Positions 12,356 through 19,717 of a DNA stretch of 33,753 nucleotides are shown here, one piece after another. The position numbers and the translations under genes are program-made. Under the pieces are notes generated by a model, which was given only the letters and a program-made list of their open reading frames with translations, did no database searches and had not been told where the DNA came from. Location: the UHGV virus genome UHGV-0114643; one strand, written 5' to 3'. Positions within the stretch are counted from its first letter, which is position 1. Each line of letters begins with the position of its first letter. Source of the DNA: a virus.

Positions 12356-13771
12356 ATGAGCGAATTATTTAAACACTCGCATCTACATGCAGGTTTAACT
12401 GAAAACGGTGCTGTTAACCACACATCTTCAATGTCTGCACTGGTAGATTTCTACAAAGCTGCTGGTTCAAGCAGAACAAATGTAGAAGTTCTTCCAAACT
12501 TGTTTTACAAGGCAATGCGAGAAGATATTGATGTAGCAGTTCGAATCCTGTTACATATGCGAGATGCACGAGAAGGTATGGGTGAGCGTAAAGCGTTCCG
12601 TTATACTCTTACTAAAGCAATCTCTGACGGGATTCTTGATGAGTTTCAAGTATTACGTATCATGGACAAGATTTCTGATTTAGGTCGTTATGACGACTTT
12701 AAAATCTTTGTTGGTACACGTTACGAAACAGATGCTTTCAAGCATTTAGAATCGGCACTGTTAGACCCTGCAACATCGGCTCTGGCAGCAAAATGGTTAC
12801 CACGAGTAAAATCACGACACATGCGTTTTGTTCGTCGTTTCTGTAAGTTTGCAAATCTTTCAGAGAAGCAGTATCGAGTTCTTCTGTCAGCACTGTCTGA
12901 TACTGTTGAACAAAAGATTTCAGCAAACGAGTTTGGAGAGATTGATTACAGCAAGCTTCCTTCACTGGCTGCTGCACGTTATCAAAAACTCTTCAGTCGT
13001 AAAGATGGTGAGCGTTATGCAGCATACGTTACAGCACTGACTAAAGGTGAGACAAAGATTAATGCTGGTGCAGTCTACCCTTATGACATTACAAAGTCAG
13101 TCGGTTACGGTAATGCAACCGTTGCAAATGAGCAGTGGAAAGCTTTACCAAACTGGATGAAAGAGGGTGAAAACATTCTGTGCATGGCAGATGTATCTTC
13201 ATCTATGACTTGGGAGCGACATGGTTCTGTTACAGCGCTAGATATTGGTGTATCTTTAGCCCTGTACGTTTCAGAACGTAATACAGGTTGCTTTAAAGAT
13301 GAATTGATGGTTTACTCTAGCCGACCTCACTTCATCACATTGAGTGGTGATTTGCAGACTCGCTTACGACAAGTAAAGAGTCATGTAGAATATGGTTCAA
13401 CTGACCTACAAGCTGCTTTTGCAAGAATCCTTGAGATTGGTGTTAAAAACAACTTGACTCAGAAAGAGATGCCTAGTAAGCTTATCATCTTCTCTGATAT
13501 GCAGTTCAATCAGGTTGATGGAGCAGATGGTCGTACTAACTTTGAAGCAATTCAAGAAAAGTACAAGAAAGCTGGATATGAGATGCCACAACTGGTATTC
13601 TGGTACTTAGCAAACCGTAATGGTACTTGCGAAGTGTCTGTAAAGGATAACGGTGTAGCAATGGTATCTGGTTTCTCTCCAGCCACTTTAAAAGCTTTGC
13701 TTGGTGGTGAGAAGTTTGACCCTATCAGCGTAATGCTCAAAGCAGTAATGATTGAACGCTACGATTGGTAA
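12356..13771 (+). CDS. vWA-domain protein, 471 aa (helical N-terminal region + C-terminal von Willebrand A domain); possibly Ro60/TROVE-like or DUF2828-like
   Basis: MIDAS-like D-x-S-x-S in LCMADVSSSMTWE and beta-strand-like LIIFSDMQF seen in translation; fold family is inferred, not searched. Confidence 0.6.
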   Translation: MSELFKHSHLHAGLTENGAVNHTSSMSALVDFYKAAGSSRTNVEVLPNLFYKAMREDIDVAVRILLHMRDAREGMGERKAFRYTLTKAISDGILDEFQVLRIMDKISDLGRYDDFKIFVGTRYETDAFKHLESALLDPATSALAAKWLPRVKSRHMRFVRRFCKFANLSEKQYRVLLSALSDTVEQKISANEFGEIDYSKLPSLAAARYQKLFSRKDGERYAAYVTALTKGETKINAGAVYPYDITKSVGYGNATVANEQWKALPNWMKEGENILCMADVSSSMTWERHGSVTALDIGVSLALYVSERNTGCFKDELMVYSSRPHFITLSGDLQTRLRQVKSHVEYGSTDLQAAFARILEIGVKNNLTQKEMPSKLIIFSDMQFNQVDGADGRTNFEAIQEKYKKAGYEMPQLVFWYLANRNGTCEVSVKDNGVAMVSGFSPATLKALLGGEKFDPISVMLKAVMIERYDW

Positions 13772-13789
13772 AAAGTTTTAAAAAGGGTA

Positions 13790-13818
13790 TTGACAAAGTG
13801 TTTAATACCCTTTAATAT
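13790..13818 (+). promoter_or_regulatory. sigma70-like promoter (TTGACA-N17-TAATAT), overlapped by a 9-bp inverted repeat (AAGGGTATT / AATACCCTT)
   Basis: Consensus hexamers with canonical spacing, read directly. Confidence 0.5.
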
Positions 13819-13879
13819 GTTCTACATAGAAACGAAAAAGAAGTTTTCTGAAATAAATCAAATTATTTTAAAAAACCTC

Positions 13880-13909
13880 TTGACAGACACTAAAAAATAG
13901 TGTTATAGT
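13880..13909 (+). promoter_or_regulatory. sigma70-like promoter (TTGACA-N18-TATAGT) about 30 nt upstream of the first tRNA
   Basis: Consensus hexamers read directly. Confidence 0.5.
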
Positions 13910-13936
13910 TGTTACATAGGTTGTTAAAAAGATTAT

Positions 13937-14016
13937 CTCCGTTTAGCTCAGTTTGGTTTAGCAGCACTTGCTTTGGGAGCAAGGGGTCGAGGGTTCAAAT
14001 CCTTCAACGGAGACCA
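13937..14016 (+). tRNA. tRNA-Pro (anticodon TGG), CCA encoded
   Basis: 7-bp acceptor stem CTCCGTT/AACGGAG, T-arm GAGGG-TTCAAAT-CCTTC, anticodon loop TTTGGGA. Confidence 0.8.
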
Positions 14017-14022
14017 AATTAT

Positions 14023-14100
14023 ATTCCCGTAGACAAATTAGGTAAAGTCAACACCCTTTCAAGGTGTGGTTTGAGGGTTCAAGTCCCTTCGGGAATGCCA
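14023..14100 (+). tRNA. tRNA-Glu (anticodon TTC), CCA encoded
   Basis: Perfect acceptor stem ATTCCCG/CGGGAAT, T-arm, anticodon loop CTTTCAA. Confidence 0.85.
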
Positions 14101-14107
14101 GTTTTGA

Positions 14108-14177
14108 CAGAAGACCAATTACAGCAAACAAACTTTTCAATTTCGCGCATAGAAATCCAAAAAAGATTTGGTCTGGT
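14108..14177 (+). repeat. inter-tRNA element a (CAGAAGACC ... GGTCTGGT family); candidate small structured RNA
   Basis: Shares 5' (CAGAAGACC-N-ACAGCAA) and 3' (GGTCTGGT) ends with three other spacers; terminal 5-bp helix AGACC/GGTCT. Confidence 0.6.
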
Positions 14178-14187
14178 CATTAAGAAT

Positions 14188-14264
14188 TGCGGGTATAGAG
14201 AAAGGGTGTCTCACATGTCTCATTAGCATGTTATCGGTAGGTTCGACTCCTACACCCGCCTCCA
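14188..14264 (+). tRNA. tRNA with CAT anticodon (Met, fMet or Ile2), atypical (U1:C72 mismatch, U at position 37)
   Basis: Acceptor TGCGGGT/ACCCGCC, T-arm GTAGG-TTCGACT-CCTAC, anticodon arm CATGT-CTCATTA-GCATG, CCA encoded. Confidence 0.55.
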
Positions 14265-14270
14265 AATTTA

Positions 14271-14336
14271 CAGAAGACCGTTTACAGCAAACACTTAAAA
14301 TTTTTTATAGGAAAAAATGAAAAGATACGGTCTGGT
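14271..14336 (+). repeat. inter-tRNA element b (CAGAAGACC ... GGTCTGGT family)
   Basis: Direct repeat of the element termini. Confidence 0.6.
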
Positions 14337-14347
14337 AATACTAATAT

Positions 14348-14424
14348 GGTTAGGAAGCACATAAGGCATGTGCGGTCGGCTGTTAACCGAATGGTACAGG
14401 GTTCGAATCCCTGACTAACCGCCA
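14348..14424 (+). tRNA. tRNA-Asn (anticodon GTT)
   Basis: Acceptor GGTTAGG/ACTAACC, D-stem GCAC/GTGC, anticodon loop CTGTTAA, T-arm CAGGG-TTCGAAT-CCCTG, CCA encoded. Confidence 0.8.
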
Positions 14425-14493
14425 AGATTTGGGAGAGAAGTGATTGCTCACCGATTTGTAAGGTGCAAGTCCTTAGCCTGAATAGAATAAAAT

Positions 14494-14581
14494 GCGTCGT
14501 TATCCCGTAGATGGAAGCGGTGGTGACTGTAAATCACTTGTCATTATGACTCGGTAGGTTCGACTCCTTCACGGCGCACCA
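14494..14581 (+). tRNA. tRNA-Tyr (anticodon GTA), long variable arm
   Basis: Acceptor GCGTCGT/ACGGCGC, anticodon arm GGTGA-CTGTAAA-TCACT, variable-arm hairpin, T-arm, CCA encoded. Confidence 0.8.
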
Positions 14582-14587
14582 AATAAA

Positions 14588-14664
14588 GGTTATGTAGTTT
14601 AACTGGTCAAAATACCTCCCTGTCACGGAGGATGATGAGGGTTCGAATCCCTTCGTAACCGCCA
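14588..14664 (+). tRNA. tRNA-Asp (anticodon GTC)
   Basis: Acceptor GGTTATG/CGTAACC, D-stem GTTT/AAAT, anticodon arm CCTCC-CTGTCAC-GGAGG, T-arm GAGGG-TTCGAAT-CCCTT, CCA encoded. Confidence 0.85.
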
Positions 14665-14725
14665 AATTTGAGAGGGCTTGTTAGCCCCTCCCTTAAAGAG
14701 TTCTTACGAGTATTCTTTAAAGGAG

Positions 14726-14800
14726 CAGAAGACCAAATACAGCAAGCAATTTTAATATTTCAAGCCAATTTAATTTGAAAAATTTAAAACTTGGTCTGGT
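14726..14800 (+). repeat. inter-tRNA element c (CAGAAGACC ... GGTCTGGT family)
   Basis: Direct repeat of the element termini. Confidence 0.6.
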
Positions 14801-14813
14801 TCCAACAATTTTA

Positions 14814-14940
14814 CAGAAGACCGTTTACAGCAAACAATAAACAATCTATTTCTCTGGTAAAGAAAAGGCGAAGGTTCGATTCCTTCACACGTTACGGCGT
14901 GTTGGTGTAATGGAAGCACTTAAGATAAATACGGTCTGGT
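14814..14940 (+). repeat. inter-tRNA element d (127 nt) with internal T-arm mimic (GAAGG-TTCGATT-CCTTC) and D-arm-like hairpin; candidate Y-RNA-like ncRNA
   Basis: Same termini as a-c; tRNA-like motifs present but no acceptor stem pairing, so not a tRNA. Confidence 0.5.
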
Positions 14941-15089
14941 AATCCTCTTTGCAGTGACTTATGGAGCTAATATGTCGTCCCATGAGTGCCGATGAGTTTC
15001 TTGAGCATGATTCTAGATTAGCTTACTAAGAGACAACTCTACAAACCCTTTAGCAAGGTTTGCGTAGGTTACTGCAAAGATGATTTAAT

Positions 15090-15165
15090 GGAAGTGTAGC
15101 AGAATGGTGATGCGGCAGACTTTTAATCTGACAGGCGACGGGTTCGAATCCCTCCACTTCTACCA
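15090..15165 (+). tRNA. tRNA-Lys (anticodon TTT)
   Basis: Acceptor GGAAGTG/CACTTCT, anticodon loop CTTTTAA, T-loop GGGTTCGAATCCC, CCA encoded. Confidence 0.8.
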
Positions 15166-15246
15166 AATTCGCCCCTTAACTGAAGAACACATGCGCGGCT
15201 GGAAACACCCACTCAATCAGTTCTCTACAAAGGGGCAACTTATAAT

Positions 15247-15323
15247 GGTTCAGTCGCAGATAAGGTAATGCAAGGGTTTCATAAGCCCTATGAATGTGGG
15301 TTCGATTCCCACCTGAACCTCCA
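15247..15323 (+). tRNA. tRNA-Met (anticodon CAT; could be initiator or Ile2)
   Basis: Perfect acceptor GGTTCAG/CTGAACC, anticodon arm AGGGT-TTCATAA-GCCCT, T-arm GTGGG-TTCGATT-CCCAC, CCA encoded. Confidence 0.8.
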
Positions 15324-15325
15324 AT

Positions 15326-15400
15326 TGTGGGTTAGCATAAATGGTAATGCAAACGGCTGATAACCGTTAGAAGAGGGTTCGATACCCTCACCTACAACCA
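15326..15400 (+). tRNA. tRNA-Ile (anticodon GAT)
   Basis: Acceptor TGTGGGT/ACCTACA, D-stem GCAT/ATGC, anticodon arm AACGG-CTGATAA-CCGTT, T-arm GAGGG-TTCGATA-CCCTC, CCA encoded. Confidence 0.85.
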
Positions 15401-15414
15401 ATTTCATAAAGTTG

Positions 15415-15443
15415 TTGACATTCAGATGTGACCACTTTAAGAT
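15415..15443 (+). promoter_or_regulatory. internal promoter-like element (TTGACA-N17-TAAGAT) inside the tRNA array
   Basis: Exact -35, 17-nt spacer, 4/6 at -10. Confidence 0.35.
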
Positions 15444-15676
15444 AACCTTAGTTTTCGTTAGCGTAGCGTCTATTTTAAAAACTTAAAAATAAATGCAAAC
15501 GATAATGTTTTTCTGGCAGTAGCTTAATAGGCTAAACACCAGCAGGGTATTCCAACTCCCTGTTAAAGAATTTGGCGTACTAGCCCACGGTATGATTAAT
15601 AAAGTGGGCAATATTCTAAAGAGCATCCCTTAAGGGGCTTGGCTTAAATGCAATGAGTGCTCTTTAAAATATTAAT

Positions 15677-15752
15677 GCTCCGTTAGTCTAAAGGATAGGC
15701 AACTGTCTTCTAAACAGTTCATATATAGGTTCGAGTCCTATACGGAGTGCCA
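15677..15752 (+). tRNA. tRNA-Arg (anticodon TCT)
   Basis: Acceptor GCTCCGT/ACGGAGT, D-stem GTCT/AGGC, anticodon arm ACTGT-CTTCTAA-ACAGT, T-arm ATAGG-TTCGAGT-CCTAT, CCA encoded. Confidence 0.85.
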
Positions 15753-15813
15753 ATTCTAATGGTCAAGACAACACGAGTAAGTTATCTTAGATACGCGTTA
15801 AGAGATAAACGAA

Positions 15814-15881
15814 AGTCGGAAAGTTGCTGAAGGGTAGCTCCCTTCGATAGTAAGTAGGTTCGACTCCTACCTTGACTGCCA
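15814..15881 (+). tRNA. tRNA-like element, probably degenerate or interrupted (canonical T-arm and 3' end with CCA, but no D-arm; a perfect 5' acceptor partner GGTCAAG lies at 15761-15767)
   Basis: T-arm GTAGG-TTCGACT-CCTAC and 3' strand CTTGACT-G-CCA; only 65 nt from the nearest 5' partner, 118 nt from the perfect one. Confidence 0.3.
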
Positions 15882-16046
15882 AATAGTTAGCAGATTACTA
15901 CGACGACCTTTATGGGTCTCCGCATTGACTTGAAAGAGTCAATCTCATAAGGAGGTGGTCTGTATCTCATGTTTTCCAGAACATGTAAATAATCTGAGAA
16001 GAAGCTTGACAGTGTTGAGATAACAGGGTAAGCTTCGAAATATAGT

Positions 16047-16129
16047 ATGGGACGATGTTAAGACACTAAGGCATGTGCGTAAGCCTCCAAAACTTACTCA
16101 AAGGGGTTCGAATCCTCCGTCCCATGCCA
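16047..16129 (+). tRNA. atypical tRNA, candidate tRNA-Trp (CCA inside a 9-nt anticodon loop CCUCCAAAA; D region ~7 nt too long)
   Basis: Perfect acceptor ATGGGAC/GTCCCAT, T-loop GGGGTTCGAATCC, CCA encoded; Trp is the only amino acid otherwise missing from the array. Confidence 0.45.
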
Positions 16130-16142
16130 AAGTCTTATTAGG

Positions 16143-16230
16143 GGTAGGTAGCGGCTAATGGAAGCCAAACTGTCTTGAAAACAGTTGCCATTGTAGAGAT
16201 ACGGTGAGGGTTCGACTCCTTTATCTACCG
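16143..16230 (+). tRNA. tRNA-Ser (anticodon TGA), long variable arm; 3' CCA not encoded (CCT follows)
   Basis: Acceptor GGTAGGT/ATCTACC, anticodon arm ACTGT-CTTGAAA-ACAGT, 20-nt variable arm, T-arm GAGGG-TTCGACT-CCTTT. Confidence 0.75.
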
Positions 16231-16485
16231 CCTAATAAGATTTAAAGCTGAGACTCGCTGTTCGGGCAAGTGTTTCAGGTTTCCTCTTCGTGTATTGGCG
16301 TACACGGCACTGGTAAAACACCTAGTAGGTGTCACGGAGAAGAGATAGTATCAAGCTCTCCAAAGGTTCTAGTCACCGGATTAAACAAGACTATGCAAAG
16401 GCCAATAGGTCTTTTTAGAGAATTGTTAAGATGTTTAATACCATTGTTGCTTTGGTGTCTTAGCAGTTCTCTACAAAGATTTAAT

Positions 16486-16562
16486 GCACCTATAGCCCAA
16501 CTGGAAGAGGCAGCAGACTTAGAATCTGCTCAGTGTGAGTTCGAATCTCTCTAGGTGTACCA
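16486..16562 (+). tRNA. tRNA with Leu anticodon TAG, class-II-like D-arm but short variable loop
   Basis: Acceptor GCACCTA/TAGGTGT, anticodon arm GCAGA-CTTAGAA-TCTGC, discriminator A, CCA encoded. Confidence 0.7.
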
Positions 16563-16569
16563 AATTAAT

Positions 16570-16645
16570 GCAGGTGTAGCAAAATGGTTATGCGGCTGAC
16601 TCTTAATCAGTAAGACGATGGGTTCAATTCCCTCCACCTGTACCA
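16570..16645 (+). tRNA. tRNA-Lys (anticodon CTT)
   Basis: Acceptor GCAGGTG/CACCTGT, anticodon loop CTCTTAA, T-loop GGGTTCAATTCCC, CCA encoded. Confidence 0.8.
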
Positions 16646-16651
16646 AACAAT

Positions 16652-16727
16652 GGGGATGTAGTTTACATGGTTAAAACATAAGTTTTGCAAACTTAAGTAC
16701 AGGGTTCAATTCCCTGCTTCTCCACCA
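16652..16727 (+). tRNA. tRNA-Ala (anticodon TGC) with G3:U70 identity pair
   Basis: Acceptor GGGGATG/CTTCTCC, D-stem GTTT/AAAC, anticodon arm TAAGT-TTTGCAA-ACTTA, T-arm CAGGG-TTCAATT-CCCTG, CCA encoded. Confidence 0.85.
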
Positions 16728-16733
16728 ATTAGT

Positions 16734-16808
16734 GCATCCATAGTTTAAACGGGAAAATTACAGTCTTCCAAACTGAGGTTGAGGGTTCGATTCCCTCTGG
16801 ATGCTCCA
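16734..16808 (+). tRNA. tRNA-Gly (anticodon TCC)
   Basis: Perfect acceptor GCATCCA/TGGATGC, anticodon loop CTTCCAA, T-arm GAGGG-TTCGATT-CCCTC, CCA encoded. Confidence 0.85.
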
Positions 16809-16814
16809 AATAAT

Positions 16815-16890
16815 GCTCTTATCGTATAATTGGCTATTACGGTTGCCTTGTAAGCAACTTATCAGGGTTCGAATCCTTGTGGGAGCACCA
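16815..16890 (+). tRNA. tRNA-Thr (anticodon TGT)
   Basis: Acceptor GCTCTTA/TGGGAGC, anticodon arm GTTGC-CTTGTAA-GCAAC, T-arm CAGGG-TTCGAAT-CCTTG, CCA encoded. Confidence 0.85.
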
Positions 16891-16987
16891 ATTTTGAGGT
16901 CAAGTGAAAGACCGCTTGAGTCAACTGAAGACCGTAACAAATTCCACGGAGTTGAGTTAGCGGCACAGCTTCAGACCTCTTTTCAAA

Positions 16988-17062
16988 GCTCGCTTAGTTT
17001 ATATGGTAAAGCCCCATCCTTACAAGTTGGTGAAGAAGGTTCAAGTCCTTCAGCGAGTACCA
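16988..17062 (+). tRNA. tRNA-Val (anticodon TAC)
   Basis: Acceptor GCTCGCT/AGCGAGT, D-stem GTTT/AAGC, anticodon loop CTTACAA, T-arm GAAGG-TTCAAGT-CCTTC, CCA encoded. Confidence 0.75.
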
Positions 17063-17063
17063 A

Positions 17064-17141
17064 GTTCCAGTATCCCAATTGGCAGAGGATGCAAGCTCAA
17101 ACCTTGTATTAGTGACGGTTCGAATCCGTCTTGGAACACCA
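17064..17141 (+). tRNA. tRNA with Leu anticodon CAA, class-II-like D-arm (3-bp stem, CAATTGGCAGA loop) but short variable loop
   Basis: Acceptor GTTCCAG/TTGGAAC, anticodon arm GCAAG-CTCAAAC-CTTGT, T-arm GACGG-TTCGAAT-CCGTC, discriminator A, CCA encoded. Confidence 0.7.
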
Positions 17142-17156
17142 AATTAGGAGATTCCT

Positions 17157-17369
17157 ATGAAGCCTTATGGTAGACATGGTAAAGTTGAAATTGCAAGTTG
17201 TGGTTGCTGTGCTTCTCACGATGGTGAAGAAGATTACTACAAGTGGCGTACAGACCATCGTAAACGCTTTCTCAGAAGAGATAAGAAGAAAGCTAGACAG
17301 GAATCTCGAAAGAATATTGCAGAATTAGTTCAAATGGATAGAACAGCAATCTACGAAGTTGTTTGTTAG
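17157..17369 (+). CDS. small basic Cys-containing hypothetical protein, 70 aa; last ~17 codons overlap tRNA-Arg
   Basis: ATG with AGGAGA 7 nt upstream; ORF in track; overlap makes the true extent uncertain. Confidence 0.35.
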   Translation: MKPYGRHGKVEIASCGCCASHDGEEDYYKWRTDHRKRFLRRDKKKARQESRKNIAELVQMDRTAIYEVVC

Positions 17370-17395
17370 GGGTTCGAATCCCTTATTCTGCACCA
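17319..17395 (+). tRNA. tRNA-Arg (anticodon ACG)
   Basis: Perfect acceptor GCAGAAT/ATTCTGC, D-stem GTTC/GAAC, anticodon arm GCAAT-CTACGAA-GTTGT, T-arm AGGGG-TTCGAAT-CCCTT, CCA encoded. Confidence 0.8.
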
Positions 17396-17413
17396 ATTTT
17401 AGAAGGTAATTAT

Positions 17414-17641
17414 ATGCGTAAACTCATTATTGAAAGGCATAAAGATGCTGACAAGATTGAAACAACACAAGTTGGGGACACTGACTTCATTCTTGTAGGT
17501 TGGAAATGTGACCCAATAGCAGCTATGAAGGTTGTTCATGGTTTTGCAGGAATTGAATTTAATCAAATCATATTTGAAACGCTATTACCAGAAAATCAGG
17601 ATACGTGTAATAACGCATATGTCCTGACAAGAGTTCGTTAG
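17414..17641 (+). CDS. hypothetical protein, 75 aa (paralogue A: MRKLIIERH ... DTCNNAYVLTRVR); start moved to the ATG with a proper RBS
   Basis: About 60% identical to 17686..17913; AGAAGG upstream of ATG. Confidence 0.5.
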   Translation: MRKLIIERHKDADKIETTQVGDTDFILVGWKCDPIAAMKVVHGFAGIEFNQIIFETLLPENQDTCNNAYVLTRVR

Positions 17642-17667
17642 GGGTTCGAATCCCTTATTCTGCACCA
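17633..17667 (+). pseudogene. tRNA 3' fragment (T-arm + acceptor 3' strand + CCA), identical to the 3' end of tRNA-Arg(ACG); duplication scar
   Basis: 30 of 31 nt identical to 17365-17395; no complementary 5' acceptor strand or D-arm upstream. Confidence 0.55.
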
Positions 17668-17685
17668 AATTTAAAAGGGTAACTT

Positions 17686-17913
17686 ATGTTTAAACTCATA
17701 GTTGAAAAACACCCAGAAGATGACAAGCTTGAAACAGGGAGATTTGGAGATACTTTCTTTATCAGAGTTGGCTGGAAAGCTGACCCATTAGAAGTTAGAA
17801 AGATTGTCTACAACTTTGCTGGTTTGGAATTAAAGCAAGTCATCTTTGAAACAATGTTGCCAGAAAATAAAGATACATGCAATAACGCATATATTCTTAC
17901 AAGAGTTAGTTAG
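17686..17913 (+). CDS. hypothetical protein, 75 aa (paralogue B: MFKLIVEKH ... DTCNNAYILTRVS)
   Basis: ORF in track; AAGGG upstream; paralogous to 17414..17641. Confidence 0.5.
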   Translation: MFKLIVEKHPEDDKLETGRFGDTFFIRVGWKADPLEVRKIVYNFAGLELKQVIFETMLPENKDTCNNAYILTRVS

Positions 17914-17987
17914 GGGATTAGTTTACAAGGTTAAAACCTCGGTCTTTGAAATCGAAGAAGTTGGTTCAATTCCAACATCCCCCGCCA
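17912..17987 (+). tRNA. tRNA-Gln (anticodon TTG); starts inside the stop codon of the preceding ORF
   Basis: Acceptor AGGGGAT/ATCCCCC (A1:C72), D-stem GTTT/AAAC, anticodon arm TCGGT-CTTTGAA-ATCGA, T-arm GTTGG-TTCAATT-CCAAC, CCA encoded. Confidence 0.8.
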
Positions 17988-17989
17988 AT

Positions 17990-18068
17990 GCTCCATTACT
18001 CCAATTGGCAGAGAGGCCAGACTTAAAATCTGTGTTATGTATCGGTTCGAATCCGATATGGAGTACCA
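17990..18068 (+). tRNA. tRNA with Leu anticodon TAA, class-II-like D-arm but short variable loop
   Basis: Perfect acceptor GCTCCAT/ATGGAGT, D-arm CTC-CAATTGGCA-GAG, anticodon arm CCAGA-CTTAAAA-TCTGT, T-arm ATCGG-TTCGAAT-CCGAT, discriminator A, CCA encoded. Confidence 0.7.
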
Positions 18069-18074
18069 AATATT

Positions 18075-18150
18075 AGCAGTGTAGCATAACTGGCAATGCT
18101 CCAGCCTCTGAAGCTGAATGATTAAGGTTCAAATCCTTACGCTGCTGCCA
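18075..18150 (+). tRNA. tRNA-Gln (anticodon CTG)
   Basis: Acceptor AGCAGTG/CGCTGCT, D-stem GCAT/ATGC, anticodon loop CTCTGAA, T-arm TAAGG-TTCAAAT-CCTTA, CCA encoded. Confidence 0.8.
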
Positions 18151-18181
18151 CTTCTAAGGGTTCTTACGAGAGTCCTTAAAT

Positions 18182-18255
18182 GTGGCCTTATCATAAATGG
18201 ACAATGACCCATGCTGTGAACATGGTCTATACGGGTTCGATTCCCGTAGGTCACC
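18182..18255 (+). tRNA. tRNA-His (anticodon GTG); 3' tail reads C-CCCCA rather than N-CCA and no obvious G-1
   Basis: Acceptor GTGGCCT/AGGTCAC, perfect D-stem TCAT/ATGA, anticodon arm CCATG-CTGTGAA-CATGG, T-arm ACGGG-TTCGATT-CCCGT. Confidence 0.7.
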
Positions 18256-18267
18256 CCCCAATTCAAT

Positions 18268-18343
18268 AGCTCAATTAGCTTATATGGTTAAAGCGCGTGT
18301 CTGAAAAACATGAGAACAGGGTTCAAATCCCGATGGGCTACCA
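18268..18343 (+). tRNA. tRNA-Phe (anticodon GAA), acceptor/T-stem register ambiguous
   Basis: D-stem GCTT/AAGC, anticodon arm CGTGT-CTGAAAA-ACATG, T-loop GGGTTCAAATCCC, 3' ...ACCA. Confidence 0.6.
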
Positions 18344-18359
18344 ATTTTATAGGTGCATA

Positions 18360-19094
18360 ATGAAAGAGATGACAGAACAAGGTAAAGAGATTTTTGGTCT
18401 CCTTAAATCTGGTAACGGGTTCTCTAACCCTCTTATTACTGGTGCAGCAGTTCTTGGTGGTACTGTAGCTGCCTCTCAATCATTAGTTAACTCAATTAGT
18501 TCTGTAACAGACCCAGCTACACAACAGATTTTAGTTGCTGCTGGACTGACAACAGCCTTATTAGGAAGCTTCACAACAAGCCTTGGAAGGACAACTTCAA
18601 CGACAAGTACACTCACTGAGTATGGACAAAAGTCTGTAGATGAGTTTTCACAACGTATGCAAGTAGCTAAGGGTTACTCTAATGTTATGGGAGCAGCAGG
18701 TGAACAGGTTGGATGTACACCGTTTAGTGGTATCATGGGCGTAGCTACCGAGTACGGTAATAAAGCGATGGATTTGATTAATACCTCCATAGACGCTGTA
18801 AATAGCGTTCTAAGCGATTTGCAAGATGCAATCGACCAAGGACTAGATACAATCTCTGAACTCGCTACACAGGCCGTTACAGCGATTAATGAGGGTATTG
18901 CAAAGATTACTGCATATGCTAATGAAGTAACTCAGATGATTGCAGATGAAGCAGCACTGATTGCAGAATACCTGAAAACAAATATTAATGGTTTCCTTGC
19001 GAATGTTCTACCAAGCTGGTTTGATGATTCATGTAAAACTGGTGTGATTGACACTATCGCAACTCCAGAGATGAAAGAAGCTCTGAACAAATAA
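18360..19094 (+). CDS. hypothetical protein (~244 aa), Ala/Thr/Ser/Gly-rich with hydrophobic N-terminal segment; start moved downstream of the tRNA
   Basis: Track ORF began inside tRNA-Phe; ATG at 18360 has AGGTG upstream. Confidence 0.5.
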   Translation: MKEMTEQGKEIFGLLKSGNGFSNPLITGAAVLGGTVAASQSLVNSISSVTDPATQQILVAAGLTTALLGSFTTSLGRTTSTTSTLTEYGQKSVDEFSQRMQVAKGYSNVMGAAGEQVGCTPFSGIMGVATEYGNKAMDLINTSIDAVNSVLSDLQDAIDQGLDTISELATQAVTAINEGIAKITAYANEVTQMIADEAALIAEYLKTNINGFLANVLPSWFDDSCKTGVIDTIATPEMKEALNK

Positions 19095-19095
19095 C

Positions 19096-19188
19096 GGAAG
19101 ATTAACCCTAAAAGGTAAGGGAGCAGTTTGCTAAACTGCCAGTAACCGAGAAATCGGCGTACCAGTTCAAGTCTGGTATCTTCCTCCA
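19096..19188 (+). tRNA. tRNA-Ser (anticodon GCT), long variable arm
   Basis: Perfect acceptor GGAAGAT/ATCTTCC, 3-bp D-stem, anticodon arm GCAGT-TTGCTAA-ACTGC, T-arm ACCAG-TTCAAGT-CTGGT, CCA encoded. Confidence 0.8.
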
Positions 19189-19194
19189 AATTAT

Positions 19195-19270
19195 GTGTCG
19201 GTGTCAGAAATGGTTATGTCCCTGTCTGCAAAACAGGTTTATGAGGGTTCGAGTCCCTTCCGATACTCCA
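19195..19270 (+). tRNA. tRNA-Cys (anticodon GCA)
   Basis: Acceptor GTGTCGG/CCGATAC, anticodon arm CCTGT-CTGCAAA-ACAGG, T-arm GAGGG-TTCGAGT-CCCTT, CCA encoded. Confidence 0.8.
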
Positions 19271-19302
19271 ATTTATATTAATATCTCTCTCAAAGTTATT
19301 AT

Positions 19303-19362
19303 GCCCTGCTATGAGTATTCTCCCTTTCGCTACCGGAGAGTATTTTTAGACAGGGCTTTTTT
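19303..19362 (+). terminator. compound stem-loop plus T6 terminator at the end of the tRNA array
   Basis: GCCCTG ... CAGGGC outer stem with inner hairpin, followed by TTTTTT. Confidence 0.5.
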
Positions 19363-19427
19363 ATAGAGTTATACTTTATGGGAAGACCTATACAGTATGT
19401 CTCTGGCATACATTGTGGTTTCTCCTT

Positions 19428-19451
19428 GACGGTCTCTGCACCGTCTTTTTT
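19428..19451 (+). terminator. rho-independent terminator (GACGG-TCTCTGCA-CCGTC + TTTTTT)
   Basis: Perfect 5-bp GC-rich inverted repeat followed by T6, 40 nt before the next gene. Confidence 0.65.
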
Positions 19452-19489
19452 CAGGAGAATCACTATAACTTTAATTTTGGAGAAATACA

Positions 19490-19696
19490 ATGAACGAGAC
19501 TAATGTTTACAAAGAACTATATGAAACTCAGAAACAGGCTCAAATGCTTCAAGCAACTGTAATGGCTGTGGCTGAACGTTTAATTGTTGCAACTGGTATT
19601 AACCCACAGGAAGCAACGATGGATAAACTTCTTAATTTAGTAGATGAAAAGTTTGGTGTAGAACCTAAACAGGAATCTGAAGAAGTTTCTGAATAA
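19490..19696 (+). CDS. hypothetical protein, 68 aa, acidic C-terminus
   Basis: ORF in track; GGAGAAA upstream of ATG. Confidence 0.5.
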   Translation: MNETNVYKELYETQKQAQMLQATVMAVAERLIVATGINPQEATMDKLLNLVDEKFGVEPKQESEEVSE

Positions 19697-19717
19697 TTCT
19701 ATTTGCAGAGGTGCTTA

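What the first reader, a model, noticed from the sequence alone, without database searches (positions are those of the whole stretch)
13937..19270. Large tRNA array covering 19-20 amino acids in a single transcription unit
About 27 cloverleaf-competent tRNA genes, nearly all with encoded CCA, lie between promoters at 13790/13880 and twin terminators at 19303-19451. Anticodons read by hand cover every amino acid except possibly Trp, with two isoacceptors for Lys, Arg, Gln, Ser and Met and three for Leu. Established: such arrays in virulent phages compensate codon-usage differences and can buffer host tRNA-depleting or anticodon-nuclease defences.
Basis: partly seen in the sequence, partly recalled or inferred. 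Interest (0 to 1): 0.55.

Follow-up and report, generated by a model that had tools for sequence, protein, structure and literature searches.

The report
Phage tRNA operon with Ro60/Y-RNA module
The region is a real and already known tRNA gene cluster of a Felix-O1-like (Mooglevirus) phage. It also holds unannotated parts: a Ro60-like protein gene at its head, four Y-RNA-like elements among the first tRNAs, and an odd but conserved tRNA-Trp-like gene that would complete the set of 20 amino acids.

Summary
ARAGORN same-strand tRNA genes at 13937-19270, and Rfam supports all 25. Two more are borderline. One is tRNA-Tyr(GUA) with a U50.U64 mismatch. The other is a conserved non-canonical tRNA-Trp(CCA)-like gene at 16047-16129 that all the detection tools miss. 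The flanking promoter-like sites and two intrinsic terminators are present.

The window is a Mooglevirus (Ounavirinae). The array is 95-96% identical to annotated arrays (Shigella phage Sf17, Citrobacter phage KMM2), so the array itself is already known. Codons that pair directly with the phage anticodons are enriched in the phage relative to E. coli (p=0.006). However, the set looks more like a minimal complete decoder: one U34 tRNA per four-codon box, and none for the commonest NNU codons.

Three things are new or unannotated.
- The gene directly upstream (DUF2828) folds as a Ro60/TROVE ring plus vWA domain, and its homologues are linked to tRNA arrays in very diverse phages.
- A YrlA-type permuted tRNA-like RNA lies at 14810-14943, and three shorter bulged-helix relatives lie nearby. 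All carry a CAGCAA motif and are supported by covariation.
- The Trp-like gene.

Their functions are inferred, not shown.

The parts
12356..13771 (+). Ro60-like (TROVE-fold ring plus vWA) protein gene, Pfam DUF2828 + DUF7788, 471 aa. It sits directly upstream of the array.
   Evidence: Pfam. PHROG 850 'RNA-binding protein'. AlphaFold2 model with pLDDT 90 and pTM 0.90. The top 11 Foldseek PDB hits are all Ro60/TROVE over the full length, E 5e-9 to 1e-5, including the Thermus phage phiLo Ro60 entries 9kop and 9l5y. The MIDAS residues D279, S281, S283, T349 and D381 are invariant in 38 homologues. There is no sequence-level match to Ro60 chains in the PDB.
13790..13909 (+). Two sigma-70-like promoter sites: 13790-13818 (TTGACA-17-TAATAT) and 13880-13909 (TTGACA-18-TATAGT with TG).
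   Evidence: Both TTGACA hexamers are invariant in Michonne and Felixounavirus loci. The first overlaps a hairpin at 13782-13813 that lies just after the Ro60-like gene.
13937..14100 (+). tRNA-Pro(UGG) 13937-14016 and tRNA-Glu(UUC) 14023-14100.
   Evidence: ARAGORN. Rfam 54.1 and 59.7 bits.
14104..14180 (+). Y-like element 1. It is a bulged helix: outer stem UGAC/GUCA, 5' bulge AGA, inner stem AGACCAA/UUGGUCU, then the motif UUACAGCAAAC. It has no tRNA-like domain (YrlB-like).
   Evidence: Repeat family D11, fold, covariation across 20 paralogue and orthologue variants.
14188..14264 (+). tRNA with anticodon CAU (copy 1). It has a U1.C72 mismatch. Whether it is initiator, elongator Met or Ile2 is unresolved.
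   Evidence: ARAGORN. Rfam 31.7 bits. Sequence.
14267..14339 (+). Y-like element 2: outer stem UUAC/GUAA, AGA bulge, inner stem AGACCGU/ACGGUCU, then UUACAGCAAAC.
   Evidence: In some Felixounavirus loci the outer stem is UUGC/GCAA, a compensatory change.
14348..14424 (+). tRNA-Asn(GUU).
14494..14581 (+). tRNA-Tyr(GUA), class II, borderline because of a U50.U64 mismatch in the T stem.
   Evidence: Rfam 22.8 bits, below the 29-bit cut-off. Not called by ARAGORN. Annotated tRNA-Tyr in Sf17 and 'Pseudo-GTA' in HP1. Alignment.
14588..14664 (+). tRNA-Asp(GUC).
   Evidence: 67 bits.
14722..14803 (+). Y-like element 3: outer stem GGAGC/GUUCC, AGA bulge, inner stem AGACCAA/UUGGUCU, then AUACAGCAAGC.
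14810..14943 (+). Y-like element 4, a YrlA-type RNA. It has the same bulged helix and the UUACAGCAAAC motif, and these enclose a permuted tRNA-like domain: V hairpin 14849-14865, T arm 14870-14886, acceptor-like (AS) hairpin 14887-14902, D arm 14905-14919.
   Evidence: Fold. The AS stem is replaced compensatorily in three lineages while the T and D arms stay invariant. My covariance model R1 scores it 70.7 bits. It is present in 248 phage records, mostly unannotated. Rfam tRNA gives 28.8 bits; Rfam YrlA gives no hit.
14941..15085 (+). Conserved long hairpin with a stem of about 28 bp, between Y-like element 4 and tRNA-Lys(UUU). It may be an RNase III-type processing site or another structured RNA.
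   Evidence: z = -5.1, 0 of 200 shuffles fold as well. 9 of the 47 predicted pairs are compensatory, 4 of them in the main stem.
15090..15400 (+). tRNA-Lys(UUU) 15090-15165, tRNA-CAU copy 2 at 15247-15323, tRNA-Ile(GAU) 15326-15400.
15677..15752 (+). tRNA-Arg(UCU). It reads AGA, which is 45% of phage Arg codons.
15803..15884 (+). Degenerate tRNA-like remnant. It has an intact T arm and its 3' part is related to tRNA-Arg(UCU).
   Evidence: Called by ARAGORN only at a relaxed threshold (-ps90, 'Ala-agc', with acceptor mismatches). Homology. Repeat family.
16047..16129 (+). Non-canonical tRNA-Trp(CCA)-like gene. Features: 7-bp acceptor stem, G73, encoded CCA end, a 10-nt connector in place of U8-N9, a D arm with A14, R15, G18G19 and A21, an anticodon stem GUAAG/CUUAC, a 9-nt loop C-CUCCAAA-A, and a T arm.
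   Evidence: Missed by ARAGORN at default settings and by Rfam. Conserved in 236 Ounavirinae records, with no tRNA annotation in any of the 30 rows listed (26 'none', 4 'hypothetical protein'). 98% of cells are paired and 6 pairs are compensatory, against 0 in the slid controls. The loop core, A1-U72 and G73 are the same as in E. coli trpT.
16143..17141 (+). tRNA-Ser(UGA) 16143-16232, Leu(UAG) 16486-16562, Lys(CUU) 16570-16645, Ala(UGC) 16652-16727, Gly(UCC) 16734-16808, Thr(UGU) 16815-16890, Val(UAC) 16988-17062, Leu(CAA) 17064-17141.
17157..17369 (+). 70-aa basic ORF (PHROG 10765). Its last 17 codons are the 5' half of tRNA-Arg(ACG). It is absent from Felixounavirus locus L003.
17319..17395 (+). 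tRNA-Arg(ACG).
17414..17913 (+). Two paralogous 75-aa ORFs (PHROG 14202) at 17414-17641 and 17686-17913, formed by a 272-nt tandem duplication. The second copy is preceded by a duplicate of the 3' end of tRNA-Arg (about 30 nt, 17639-17668).
   Evidence: Repeat D3, sequence, PHROG. Sf17 has only one copy.
17912..18343 (+). tRNA-Gln(UUG) 17912-17987, Leu(UAA) 17990-18068, Gln(CUG) 18075-18150, His(GUG) 18182-18257, Phe(GAA) 18268-18343.
18360..19094 (+). DUF7217 protein (244 aa from the ATG). It is annotated as a predicted membrane protein in relatives.
   Evidence: Pfam E 2e-83. PHROG 2114. Annotations.
19096..19270 (+). tRNA-Ser(GCU) 19096-19188 and tRNA-Cys(GCA) 19195-19270.
19303..19451 (+). 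Two intrinsic terminators: hairpin 19303-19356 plus T6 at 19357-19362, and hairpin 19428-19445 plus T6 at 19446-19451.

Best explanation
The region is the tRNA operon of a Mooglevirus (Felix-O1-like, Ounavirinae) myophage. It holds 25 canonical tRNA genes, a marginal tRNA-Tyr and a non-canonical tRNA-Trp-like gene. It is probably transcribed by host RNA polymerase from sigma-70-type promoters at 13790 and 13880 and ends at two intrinsic terminators near 19360 and 19450.

The precursor is presumably cut by host RNase P and RNase E in the A/U-rich trailers, and possibly by RNase III at long conserved hairpins. Most 3' ends already carry CCA.

The set has one U34 tRNA for each four-codon box except the CGN (Arg) box, which has A34 (ACG), plus Arg-UCU, Lys-CUU, Leu-UAA and Leu-CAA. 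It is therefore a near-complete minimal decoder biased to A-ending codons. I infer that it keeps translation of the AT-rich phage genome going when host tRNAs are limiting, degraded or cleaved. Codon-bias compensation is a partial benefit.

The operon is physically and, I infer, functionally coupled to an RNA-surveillance module. This consists of a Ro60-like ring protein (DUF2828) encoded immediately upstream and four Y-RNA-like elements among the first tRNAs. One of these is a YrlA-type permuted tRNA mimic. All four share a bulged helix and a CAGCAA motif, which is the likely protein-binding site.

What is shown:
- the genes, structures and covariation;
- the Ro60 fold of the upstream protein;
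- the linkage of this protein family to tRNA arrays across phages;
- the codon statistics.

What is inferred:
- transcription and processing;
- binding of the Y-like RNAs to the protein;
- charging of the Trp-like RNA;
- the biological role.
For: tRNA genes. Identity with annotated arrays of Sf17 and KMM2 (95-96%) and 356 matching phage records. Synteny at about 84% with Felixounavirus. Literature: Felix O1 has 22 tRNAs including a 'Pseudo (Tyr)' (PMC3185647); Felixounavirus genomes have 17-23 (PMC8300805).

Codon statistics. Promoters and terminators.

Ro60-like fold. MIDAS residues. Homologues at 30-52% identity occur in 710 phage records, including mycobacteriophage genes annotated 'Ro-like RNA binding protein'.

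Linkage: in 31 of 55 independent viral loci (protein 38-45% identical), tRNA or tmRNA genes lie within 10 kb on the same strand as the DUF2828 gene, often starting less than 600 nt from it. In Listeria phage LMSP-25 the order on one strand is tRNA array, DUF2828, RtcB ligase.

YrlA-type element: the V-T-AS-D order lies inside a closing helix. The AS stem is rewritten compensatorily in three lineages. Model R1 finds stand-alone same-strand modules 39-600 nt from DUF2828 genes in independent loci (L013, L020, L030, L034, L041, L074) and 145 nt downstream of the Ro-like gene of mycobacteriophage Gardann, where the Rfam YrlA model also aligns locally. Pattern hits lie about 55 nt upstream of DUF2828 in 11 further contigs. 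The CAGCAA/CCGCAA motif occurs upstream of 17 of 30 modules against a 4.7% background. Bulged helix: 92% of cells paired, 5 covarying pairs.

Bas63 gp130, the Felixounavirus counterpart, was reported as Ro60-like and as a counter of the Ppl defence system. Its authors only speculated that some of the 'tRNA genes' are Y RNAs (bioRxiv 10.1101/2024.10.10.617714).
Against: There are no expression, processing or binding data. The promoter-like count is not above the shuffle expectation. An internal promoter-like site at 15415 and four ORFs make a single transcription unit uncertain.

The Rfam YrlA model does not match the element, even at E<=10, and the published GNCGAAN0-1G motif is absent. The protein matches neither Pfam TROVE nor PDB Ro60 chains at sequence level.

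The seeds of R1 were picked with a pattern that fixes the T loop and D arm and requires a hairpin, so part of the covariation statistic is circular. R1 found a stand-alone module within about 1.5 kb of the gene in only about 9 of 75 independent loci.

U34 tRNAs do not obviously read the phage's commonest NNU codons. PhageMaP found the Bas63 tRNAs mostly non-essential on laboratory strains.
Confidence: 0.6

Rival explanations
1. The array is a plain codon-usage top-up. It exists only to raise the supply of tRNAs for codons that the AT-rich phage uses more than its host. The upstream protein and the spacer elements are unrelated passengers.
For: Cognate codons are enriched in the phage (p=0.006). 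AGA, CUA, UUA, ACA, CCA, UCA, GCA, GUA and AAG are used 1.7 to 11 times more than in E. coli. This is the classical explanation (Bailly-Bechet et al. 2007, cited in PMC8300805; Whichard et al. 2010).
Against: The set also includes tRNAs for codons that are not over-used (GAC, AAC, UGC, CAG, GAA). It lacks tRNAs that pair Watson-Crick with the most-used NNU codons (GGU alone accounts for 360 of 8122 codons). It covers 19-20 amino acids with one tRNA per box. The linkage of the Ro60-like gene to tRNA arrays recurs in unrelated phages, which does not fit a passenger.
Confidence: 0.3
2. The element at 14810-14943 is not a Y RNA. It is a decayed tRNA-Thr(GGU) fused to the 5' half of another decayed tRNA. 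The three shorter repeats are only processing hairpins or repeat debris between tRNAs.
For: The Rfam tRNA model aligns 14820-14894 at 28.8 bits, with a GGU 'anticodon'. Phage REP7 annotates the element as tRNA-Thr. The Rfam YrlA model gives no match. Tandem tRNA junctions also score with R1 at 20-40 bits. The fold z-score is unremarkable (-0.8).
Against: The hairpin between the T and D arms has no CCA or spacer. It is replaced by fully compensatory sequences in three lineages (ACACGU/GCGUGU, ACUCGGC/GUCGAGU, ACCCUUC/GAAGGGU), while the 'anticodon arm' is not conserved in Michonne. The same T-AS-D order with the same 5' motif lies next to DUF2828 genes in unrelated phages. The closing helix covaries among paralogues and orthologues.
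Confidence: 0.15
3. The RNA at 16047-16129 is a pseudo-tRNA or a tRNA-like decoy or regulatory element, not a working tRNA-Trp. In that case the phage relies on host tRNA-Trp.
For: Neither ARAGORN at default settings nor Rfam calls it. At relaxed thresholds ARAGORN gives an ambiguous 4-base anticodon reading. The 10-nt connector, the 9-nt loop (or a C31.A39 mismatch) and an A49.C65 mismatch are all non-canonical.
Against: All four helices are maintained by compensatory changes across five Ounavirinae lineages (Mooglevirus, Moogle, Felixounavirus, SUSP2, Pectobacterium phage Wc4-1), while the CCA anticodon, U33, A37, G73 and the 3' CCA stay fixed. The loop core CUCCAAA, A1-U72 and G73 equal those of E. 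coli trpT. That the anticodon and G73 are the main TrpRS identity elements is my own knowledge (Himeno et al. 1991), not a tool result. Trp is otherwise the only amino acid missing from the set.
Confidence: 0.35

Closest known systems
tRNA gene clusters of Felix O1 and other Ounavirinae (Whichard et al. 2010, PMC3185647; annotated arrays of Shigella phage Sf17 and Citrobacter phages Moogle, Michonne, Mordin and KMM2)
   Same: The gene order is the same, starting Pro-Glu-Met-Asn-Tyr-Asp-Lys. The location is the same, between the DUF2828 gene and the terminase gene. Identity is 95-96% to Mooglevirus records and about 84% to Felixounavirus. The Tyr gene is a known 'pseudo' call. The codon-usage argument is the same.
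   Different: Nothing essential differs in the array itself. This window has a tandem duplication of a 75-aa ORF and the U.U variant of Tyr. None of the records I opened or listed annotates the Y-like elements or the Trp-like gene; one (REP7) labels the Y-like element tRNA-Thr.
Large tRNA sets of T4, T5, KVP40-like vibriophages and mycobacteriophages. They are proposed to compensate codon bias, to replace degraded host tRNAs or to evade anticodon nucleases. This comparison rests on my own knowledge of the literature and was not checked with the paper tools here.
   Same: A same-strand cluster in a virulent phage, near-complete coverage, and interspersed small ORFs.
   Different: Here the cluster is coupled to a Ro60-like gene and Y-like RNAs. 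All three tRNA-Leu genes are short (77-79 nt, 5-nt variable loop), unlike bacterial class II tRNA-Leu.
Bacterial Rsr (Ro60) with YrlA/YrlB Y RNAs (Salmonella rsr-yrlBA-rtcBA; Chen et al. 2014, PMC4201824) and the mycobacteriophage YrlA RNAs
   Same: A ring plus vWA protein. An RNA on the same strand within 4 kb. A closing stem that encloses V, T, AS and D stem-loops in that order. T and D loops like those of tRNA. An AS stem that is conserved only as a structure. Shorter companion RNAs that lack the tRNA-like domain, as YrlB does. In a Listeria phage the homologous gene lies 1.3 kb from RtcB.
   Different: The protein is only a fold-level relative (no TROVE Pfam hit). The GNCGAAN0-1G motif is replaced by ACAGAAG...UUACAGCAA. 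Rfam RF02553 does not match. The RNAs are embedded in a tRNA operon rather than in an RNA-repair operon. There are four copies.
Thermus phage phiLo phiRo60 with Yrl1 and Yrl2 (PMC12135203; PDB 9KOP, 9L5Y), and Bas63 gp130 (bioRxiv 10.1101/2024.10.10.617714)
   Same: A phage-encoded Ro60-like protein with nearby Y-like RNAs. 9kop is the best structural match. Bas63 gp130 is the Felixounavirus counterpart, lies directly upstream of the tRNA genes, and was reported to counter the Ppl defence.
   Different: The phiLo Yrl RNAs were picked by a CGAA motif and have no described tRNA array context. For Bas63 the Y RNAs were only conjectured to be among the annotated tRNAs. Here they are located in the unannotated spacers.

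Membership tests
Phage tRNA gene array (Ounavirinae type) | Many tandem same-strand genes that pass cloverleaf scoring | tested here: met
   25 genes by ARAGORN. All 25 reach the Rfam gathering score.
Phage tRNA gene array (Ounavirinae type) | Synteny and sequence identity with annotated arrays of the group | tested here: met
   95-96% identity to Sf17 and KMM2 with the same gene order. About 84% to Felixounavirus.
Phage tRNA gene array (Ounavirinae type) | Expression and aminoacylation of the tRNAs during infection | not testable with these tools
   This needs tRNA-seq or Northern blots of infected cells.
YrlA-type Y RNA (Chen et al. 2014) | Encoded within about 4 kb of a Ro60 orthologue, on the same strand | tested here: met
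   The element starts 1039 nt downstream of the stop of the Ro60-like gene, on the + strand.
YrlA-type Y RNA (Chen et al. 2014) | V, T, AS and D stem-loops in that order, with tRNA-like T and D loops | tested here: met
   Fold. The T loop is UUCGAUU. The D loop is AAUGGAA, with G18G19. The Rfam YrlA structure line shows the same order on an analogous phage element.
YrlA-type Y RNA (Chen et al. 2014) | AS stem conserved as a structure but not as a sequence | tested here: met
   There are three different complementary versions within Ounavirinae. 7 of 7 pairs covary across 8 seeds (partly circular).
YrlA-type Y RNA (Chen et al. 2014) | 5' and 3' ends form a closing helix that carries the protein-binding site | tested here: met
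   Bulged two-tier helix: 92% of cells paired, 5 covarying pairs, slid controls at or below 51%.
YrlA-type Y RNA (Chen et al. 2014) | GNCGAAN0-1G motif near the 5' end | tested here: not met
   The sequence has ACAGAAGACC...UUACAGCAAAC instead. A different motif, C[A/C]GCAA, is enriched upstream of the phage modules (17 of 30 against 4.7%).
YrlA-type Y RNA (Chen et al. 2014) | Match to Rfam RF02553 at its gathering score | tested here: not met
   No YrlA hit at E<=10 on 14780-14960. Analogous phage elements reach only 19-21 bits against a cut-off of 69.
YrlA-type Y RNA (Chen et al. 2014) | Binds the Ro60 protein | not testable with these tools
   This needs RIP, CLIP or EMSA.
Ro60/TROVE protein | HEAT-repeat ring followed by a vWA domain | tested here: met
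   AlphaFold2 model pLDDT 90. The top 11 Foldseek hits are all Ro60/TROVE over the full length, TM 0.36-0.62 normalised to the query.
Ro60/TROVE protein | MIDAS motif (DxSxS...T...D) in the vWA domain | tested here: met
   D279, S281, S283, T349 and D381 are invariant in 38 homologues.
Ro60/TROVE protein | Sequence-level membership (Pfam TROVE, or HMM similarity to solved Ro60 chains) | tested here: not met
   Pfam gives only DUF2828 and DUF7788. phmmer and a profile search against the PDB find no Ro60 chain.
tRNA-Trp | Anticodon CCA in a U33...A37 context, G73 discriminator and a 3' CCA | tested here: met
   The loop is C-CUCCAAA-A, followed by G73 and CCA. The core is identical to that of E. 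coli trpT. These features are kept in Wc4-1.
tRNA-Trp | Canonical cloverleaf recognised by tRNA finders | tested here: not met
   No call by ARAGORN at default settings or by Rfam. It has a 10-nt connector and a 9-nt loop. The four helices are nevertheless supported by covariation.
tRNA-Trp | Charged by TrpRS and used in translation | not testable with these tools
   This needs an aminoacylation assay or charged-tRNA sequencing.

The most novel reading that the evidence does not exclude
DUF2828 proteins, present in at least 710 phage records from Gram-negative, Gram-positive and mycobacterial hosts, are a phage branch of Ro60. Together with a distinct class of Y RNAs (bulged helix, CAGCAA/CCGCAA motif, often a permuted tRNA mimic), they form an RNP dedicated to the phage's own tRNA island. 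The RNP would protect, proofread or repair phage tRNAs, or act as a decoy for tRNA-targeting defence nucleases. In Ounavirinae this island also carries a structurally aberrant but functional tRNA-Trp, which makes the phage's decoder set complete.
Probability: 0.35. Interest if true: 0.7.

Novelty: new member of a known kind. Interest (0 to 1): 0.45.

Why it matters
The tRNA array itself adds nothing new. It is annotated in dozens of near-identical genomes and was discussed for Felix O1 in 2010.

The value lies in what sits inside and in front of it.
- It pinpoints the Y-RNA-like partners that the Bas63 PhageMaP study only conjectured for its Ro60-like anti-defence protein gp130. This gives a concrete, mutable target in a tractable E. 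coli, Salmonella and Shigella phage group.
- It shows that the Ro60-like gene is linked to tRNA arrays across very different phages, once together with RtcB. This points to a general tRNA maintenance or counter-defence island.
- It shows that standard tRNA finders miss a conserved tRNA-Trp-like gene in about 236 genomes. Published statements that these phages lack tRNA-Trp may therefore be wrong.

Tried and rejected
- The Rfam YrlA family was tried as the direct classifier. It gave no hit on the element and no hit at gathering score in 17 loci with analogous modules. It is too narrow, so I built my own model (R1).
- The weak Rfam hits for tmRNA_permuted and alpha_tmRNA at 15340-15581 and for YrlA at 18204-18329 overlap true tRNAs. 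I judged them to be tRNA-like partial matches.
- The pattern GGTTCGATTCC-N15-45-GTGTAATGGNAGCAC in IMG/VR also returns tandem tRNA junctions. I removed these by requiring a direct hairpin and no CCA.
- The R1 hit in Listeria phage LMSP-25 (33.7 bits) overlaps an annotated tRNA-Lys. I did not count it.
- A sequence-level link of DUF2828 to Ro60 failed; only the fold comparison works. A literature search for DUF2828 gave nothing relevant. The supplements of Chen et al. 2014 are not held, so I could not check whether any Ounavirinae phage was in their list of 22 phages.
- I could not assign the two CAU tRNAs to initiator, elongator or Ile2 by inspection. AUA is rare (0.25% of codons), which argues weakly against Ile2.
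- The 5th match to the motif, at 12930 inside the Ro60-like ORF, was dismissed as coding sequence.
- Pfam on ten minus-strand neighbours found only lysozyme and Ig-like domains. There are no RNA-repair enzymes in the window.

Full report
**1. What the window is.**
A megablast of 13500-19700 against GenBank phages finds 356 records. The best are Citrobacter phage BSwM KMM2 (96.5% over 100% of the query) and Shigella phage Sf17 (95.2%), both Mooglevirus, subfamily Ounavirinae, the Felix-O1-like myophages. Their records annotate the same order of genes: a DUF2828 'RNA-binding protein', then a long run of tRNA genes with a few small ORFs, then a small ORF, terminase large subunit and portal. Pfam confirms terminase at 19703-21319 in the window. 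The window has 39.3% G+C.

**2. Check of the observation.**
ARAGORN tRNA genes at 13937-19270, all on the + strand. Rfam's tRNA model reaches its gathering score for 23 in the whole-window scan and for all 25 in the sensitive scan.

CCA is encoded in register in 23 of 25. Ser-UGA has CCU, and His is followed by a run CCCCCA.

The flanking signals are there.
- Promoter-like sites lie at 13790-13818 and 13880-13909 (11 of 12 matches with an extended -10). Their -35 hexamers are invariant across Mooglevirus and Felixounavirus.
- Two intrinsic terminators are present: hairpin 19303-19356 plus T6, and hairpin 19428-19445 plus T6 (z = -6.6).
- The promoter scan as a whole is not above the shuffle expectation, and an internal promoter-like site exists at 15415. 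'One transcription unit' therefore remains an inference.

**3. The two extra members that explain 'about 27'.**

(a) tRNA-Tyr(GUA), 14494-14581. It scores 22.8 bits in Rfam and ARAGORN misses it. The alignment shows a single U50.U64 mismatch in the T stem. Sf17 has repaired it to G.U, and Felixounavirus has U-A. tRNAscan users call this gene 'pseudo' in HP1 and in Felix O1.

(b) An 83-nt gene at 16047-16129, between Arg-UCU and Ser-UGA. No tool calls it at default settings, and none of the 30 listed rows of its 236 Ounavirinae records annotates it as a tRNA. Its features are:
- a perfect 7-bp acceptor stem (AUGGGAC/GUCCCAU), G73 and an encoded CCA;
- a D arm with A14, R15, G18G19 and A21;
- a 5-bp anticodon stem;
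- a loop C-CUCCAAA-A whose 7-nt core equals the E. coli tRNA-Trp anticodon loop;
- a T arm.

E. coli trpT also has A1-U72 and G73.

It is non-canonical in three ways: a 10-nt connector where U8-N9 should be, a 9-nt loop (equivalently a C31.A39 mismatch), and an A49.C65 mismatch.

Across window, Moogle, two Felixounavirus loci, SUSP2 and Pectobacterium phage Wc4-1, 98% of cells pair. Six pairs change on both sides: four in the anticodon stem, one in the D stem and one in the T stem. Slid controls give none. Read by eye, Wc4-1 also changes 1-72 and 2-71 compensatorily and keeps CCA, G73 and the 3' CCA.

I read this as a probably functional, structurally aberrant tRNA-Trp. A decoy or regulatory tRNA-like RNA is not excluded. 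With Tyr and this gene the set covers all 20 amino acids.

**4. Codon usage.**
I used 40 tiled ORFs of the window (8122 codons) and annotated genes from a 50-kb stretch of E. coli K-12. Phage GC3 is 0.32 against 0.53 in E. coli.

Codons that pair Watson-Crick with the phage anticodons are enriched in the phage. The mean log2 ratio of within-family fractions is +0.38 against -0.57 for the other codons (Mann-Whitney p=0.006). Restricted to families with three or more codons, p=0.008. The extreme case is AGA, which is 45% of Arg codons against 4% in E. coli. Lys-CUU matches a doubling of AAG.

However, in four-codon boxes the phage prefers U-ending codons (GGU 68%, GCU 50%, GUU 48%, ACU 46%) while it supplies U34 tRNAs. 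Coverage of phage codons depends on the wobble rule and on whether Tyr and the Trp-like gene are counted:

| Wobble rule | 25 canonical genes | With Tyr and Trp-like added |
|---|---|---|
| Strict wobble | 71% | 76% |
| cmo5U-type reading of U | 87% | 92% |
| U34 reads all four codons of a box | 95% | 99.8% |

AUA is almost unused (0.25% of codons). Whichard et al. made the same remark for Felix O1.

The set is therefore better described as a minimal complete decoder with an A-ending bias than as a targeted top-up. This shifts weight towards 'independence from the host tRNA pool'. That is inference.

**5. The gene at the head of the array.**
ORF 12356-13771 (471 aa) hits only DUF2828 and DUF7788 in Pfam and PHROG 850 'RNA-binding protein'. 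Sequence and profile searches find no solved relative.

An AlphaFold2 model from 38 homologues is confident (pLDDT 90, pTM 0.90). Its 11 best Foldseek hits in the PDB are all Ro60/TROVE proteins aligned over the full length. They include Xenopus and human Ro60 and the Ro60 of Thermus phage phiLo (9kop, 9l5y). vWA domains follow. The MIDAS residues DxSxS, T and D are invariant.

tblastn finds homologues in 710 phage records. These include Vibrio, Aeromonas, Campylobacter, Listeria, Staphylococcus, Enterococcus and Bacillus phages, and mycobacteriophages where the gene is annotated 'Ro-like RNA binding protein' (34% identity, E 1e-76).

In 80 IMG/VR loci fetched through this protein, ARAGORN was run on 60. 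Of the 55 that are not Ounavirinae, 31 have tRNA or tmRNA genes on the same strand within 10 kb. Many start within a few hundred bases of the gene. In Listeria phage LMSP-25 the order on one strand is tRNA array, DUF2828, then 1.3 kb further an RtcB 'tRNA-splicing ligase'. This recalls the Salmonella rsr-yrlBA-rtcBA operon.

**6. The Y-RNA-like elements.**
The first 1.2 kb of the array contains four copies of a motif ACAGAAGACC-NN-(U/A)UACAGCAA (repeat family D11). Each pairs with a downstream NN-GGUCUGG to give a two-tier helix:
- an outer stem of 4-5 bp;
- a 5' AGA bulge opposite a single G;
- an inner stem AGACCNN/NNGGUCU.

Across 20 distinct paralogue and orthologue versions, 92% of cells pair and five pairs covary, for example UUAC/GUAA against UUGC/GCAA and AA/UU against GU/AC. 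Slid controls stay at or below 51%.

Three copies (14104-14180, 14267-14339, 14722-14803) enclose only A/U-rich loops.

The fourth (14810-14943) encloses four hairpins in the order V, T arm (GAAGG-UUCGAUU-CCUUC), a hairpin directly abutting it, a UG linker, and a D arm (GUGU-AAUGGAA-GCAC). This is the permuted tRNA-like layout that defines YrlA (Chen et al. 2014).

The middle 'acceptor-like' hairpin differs between lineages but is always complementary. It is ACACGU/GCGUGU here, ACUCGGC/GUCGAGU in Felixounavirus and ACCCUUC/GAAGGGU in Michonne. The T and D arms are invariant, and the V hairpin is not conserved in Michonne. That pattern rejects the reading as a decayed tRNA-Thr, which is how one GenBank record labels it and which Rfam's tRNA model nearly supports at 28.8 bits. 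The element is present in 248 phage records, almost always unannotated.

**7. Independent support from other phages.**
A pattern for 'T loop, 15-45 nt, this D arm' in IMG/VR returns modules with a direct hairpin as well as tandem-tRNA junctions. In 11 contigs the module lies about 55 nt upstream of a DUF2828 gene on the same strand.

A covariance model of the T-AS-D core (R1; 8 seeds) was searched over 75 loci that had been chosen only by the protein. It finds stand-alone, same-strand modules:
- 39-127 nt upstream of the gene in L013, L020, L034 and L041;
- 63 and 181 nt downstream in L074;
- 591 nt downstream in L030;
- further away in L008, L011, L037 and L038.

Lower scores are tRNA-tRNA junctions.

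R1 also finds a 44-bit module 145 nt downstream of the Ro-like gene of mycobacteriophage Gardann. Part of it is annotated 'tRNA-Asn', and Rfam's YrlA model aligns there locally. This is the phage group in which YrlA RNAs were first described.

Upstream of 17 of 30 stand-alone modules there is a C[A/C]GCAA hexamer 14-42 nt before the T arm, against 4.7% of random windows (binomial p about 1e-15; the modules are not all independent). The window's four elements all carry it (UUACAGCAAAC). I propose that this motif together with the bulged helix is the binding site for the DUF2828 protein.

The published GNCGAAN0-1G motif is absent, and Rfam RF02553 does not match. I therefore file these as YrlA-like in architecture and context but not as members of the Rfam family.

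**8. Other contents of the array.**
- The spacers are more structured than shuffles (z -2.4 to -5.1). A hairpin of about 28 bp at 14941-15085 keeps its pairing through compensatory changes.
- A degenerate tRNA-like remnant lies at 15803-15884.
- A 70-aa basic ORF (17157-17369) ends inside tRNA-Arg(ACG).
- A 272-nt tandem duplication gives two 75-aa paralogues, the second preceded by a duplicate of the last ~30 nt of tRNA-Arg.
- A DUF7217 protein lies at 18360-19094.
- All three tRNA-Leu genes are short (77-79 nt), unlike bacterial class II tRNA-Leu.

**9. Verdict.**
The array as such is already known and ordinary for this phage group.

Three things are not in the annotations or, as far as the searchable literature shows, in print:
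- the location and structure of Y-RNA-like partners of the Ro60-like protein inside the tRNA operon;
- the breadth of the linkage between DUF2828 and tRNA arrays;
- the conserved non-canonical tRNA-Trp-like gene.

All functional statements are inference and need the experiments listed under next steps: processing, protein-RNA binding, charging, and a role in counter-defence.

Noticed in passing
window 16047-16129: A conserved non-canonical tRNA-Trp(CCA)-like gene with a 10-nt acceptor-D connector and a 9-nt anticodon loop. ARAGORN and Rfam miss it, and none of the listed rows of its about 236 Ounavirinae records annotates it as a tRNA. Six compensatory pairs support the cloverleaf.
   Followed up: yes
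window 12356-13771, and loci L008-L082, L205, L211: The DUF2828 protein has a Ro60/TROVE plus vWA fold. Its homologues sit next to or inside tRNA arrays in many unrelated phages. In Listeria phage LMSP-25 it lies between a tRNA array and an RtcB ligase gene.
   Followed up: yes
window 14941-15085: A long hairpin of about 28 bp just upstream of tRNA-Lys(UUU). It is conserved, with compensatory changes between Mooglevirus and Felixounavirus. Its 5' strand overlaps the 3' outer strand of Y-like element 4. It may be an RNase III site.
   Followed up: partly
window 17361-17904: A tandem 272-nt duplication. The two 75-aa ORFs (PHROG 14202) have diverged (74% identity at the DNA level), but the ~30-nt 3' fragment of tRNA-Arg(ACG) carried by the repeat unit is identical. 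Sf17 has a single copy.
   Followed up: partly
window 17157-17369: A 70-aa, very basic, Cys-containing ORF (PHROG 10765). Its C-terminal 17 codons are the 5' half of tRNA-Arg(ACG). It is absent from Felixounavirus locus L003, where Leu-CAA and Arg-ACG are adjacent.
   Followed up: no
window 16486-16562, 17064-17141, 17990-18068: All three tRNA-Leu genes are 77-79 nt long with a 5-nt variable loop (class-I-like) and A73. Bacterial tRNA-Leu has a long variable arm. Short Leu tRNAs also appear in several unrelated viral loci (L009, L030, L037).
   Followed up: no
window 14188-14264 and 15247-15323: Two CAU-anticodon tRNAs of unresolved identity. The first has a U1.C72 mismatch (initiator-like) but lacks three G-C pairs in the anticodon stem, and it scores only 31.7 bits. 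AUA codons are nearly absent from the phage, so an Ile2 role seems unnecessary.
   Followed up: partly
window 15401-15676, 15753-16142, 16233-16485: Long tRNA-free spacers that fold more stably than shuffles (z -2.4, -3.1, -3.2). They include a perfect long hairpin just upstream of tRNA-Leu(UAG) and a promoter-like site at 15415-15443. Weak tmRNA-like Rfam hits at 15340-15581 look like partial matches to tRNA.
   Followed up: partly
window 15803-15884 and 14425-14493: Two tRNA-like remnants. The first has an intact T arm and is related to the 3' part of tRNA-Arg(UCU). The second has a T-arm-like AAGGUGCAAGUCCUU and is present in some Felixounavirus loci and absent in others.
   Followed up: partly
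window 14696-14720 and 18156-18180: A repeated small hairpin (AAGAGUUCUUACGAGUAUUCUUUAA and AAGGGUUCUUACGAGAGUCCUUAAA) shortly after tRNA-Asp and after tRNA-Gln(CUG).
   Followed up: no
L031, L042, L046, L053, L054, L062: In several marine or metagenomic phage contigs a tmRNA gene lies 3-7 kb downstream of the DUF2828 gene, on the same strand.
   Followed up: no
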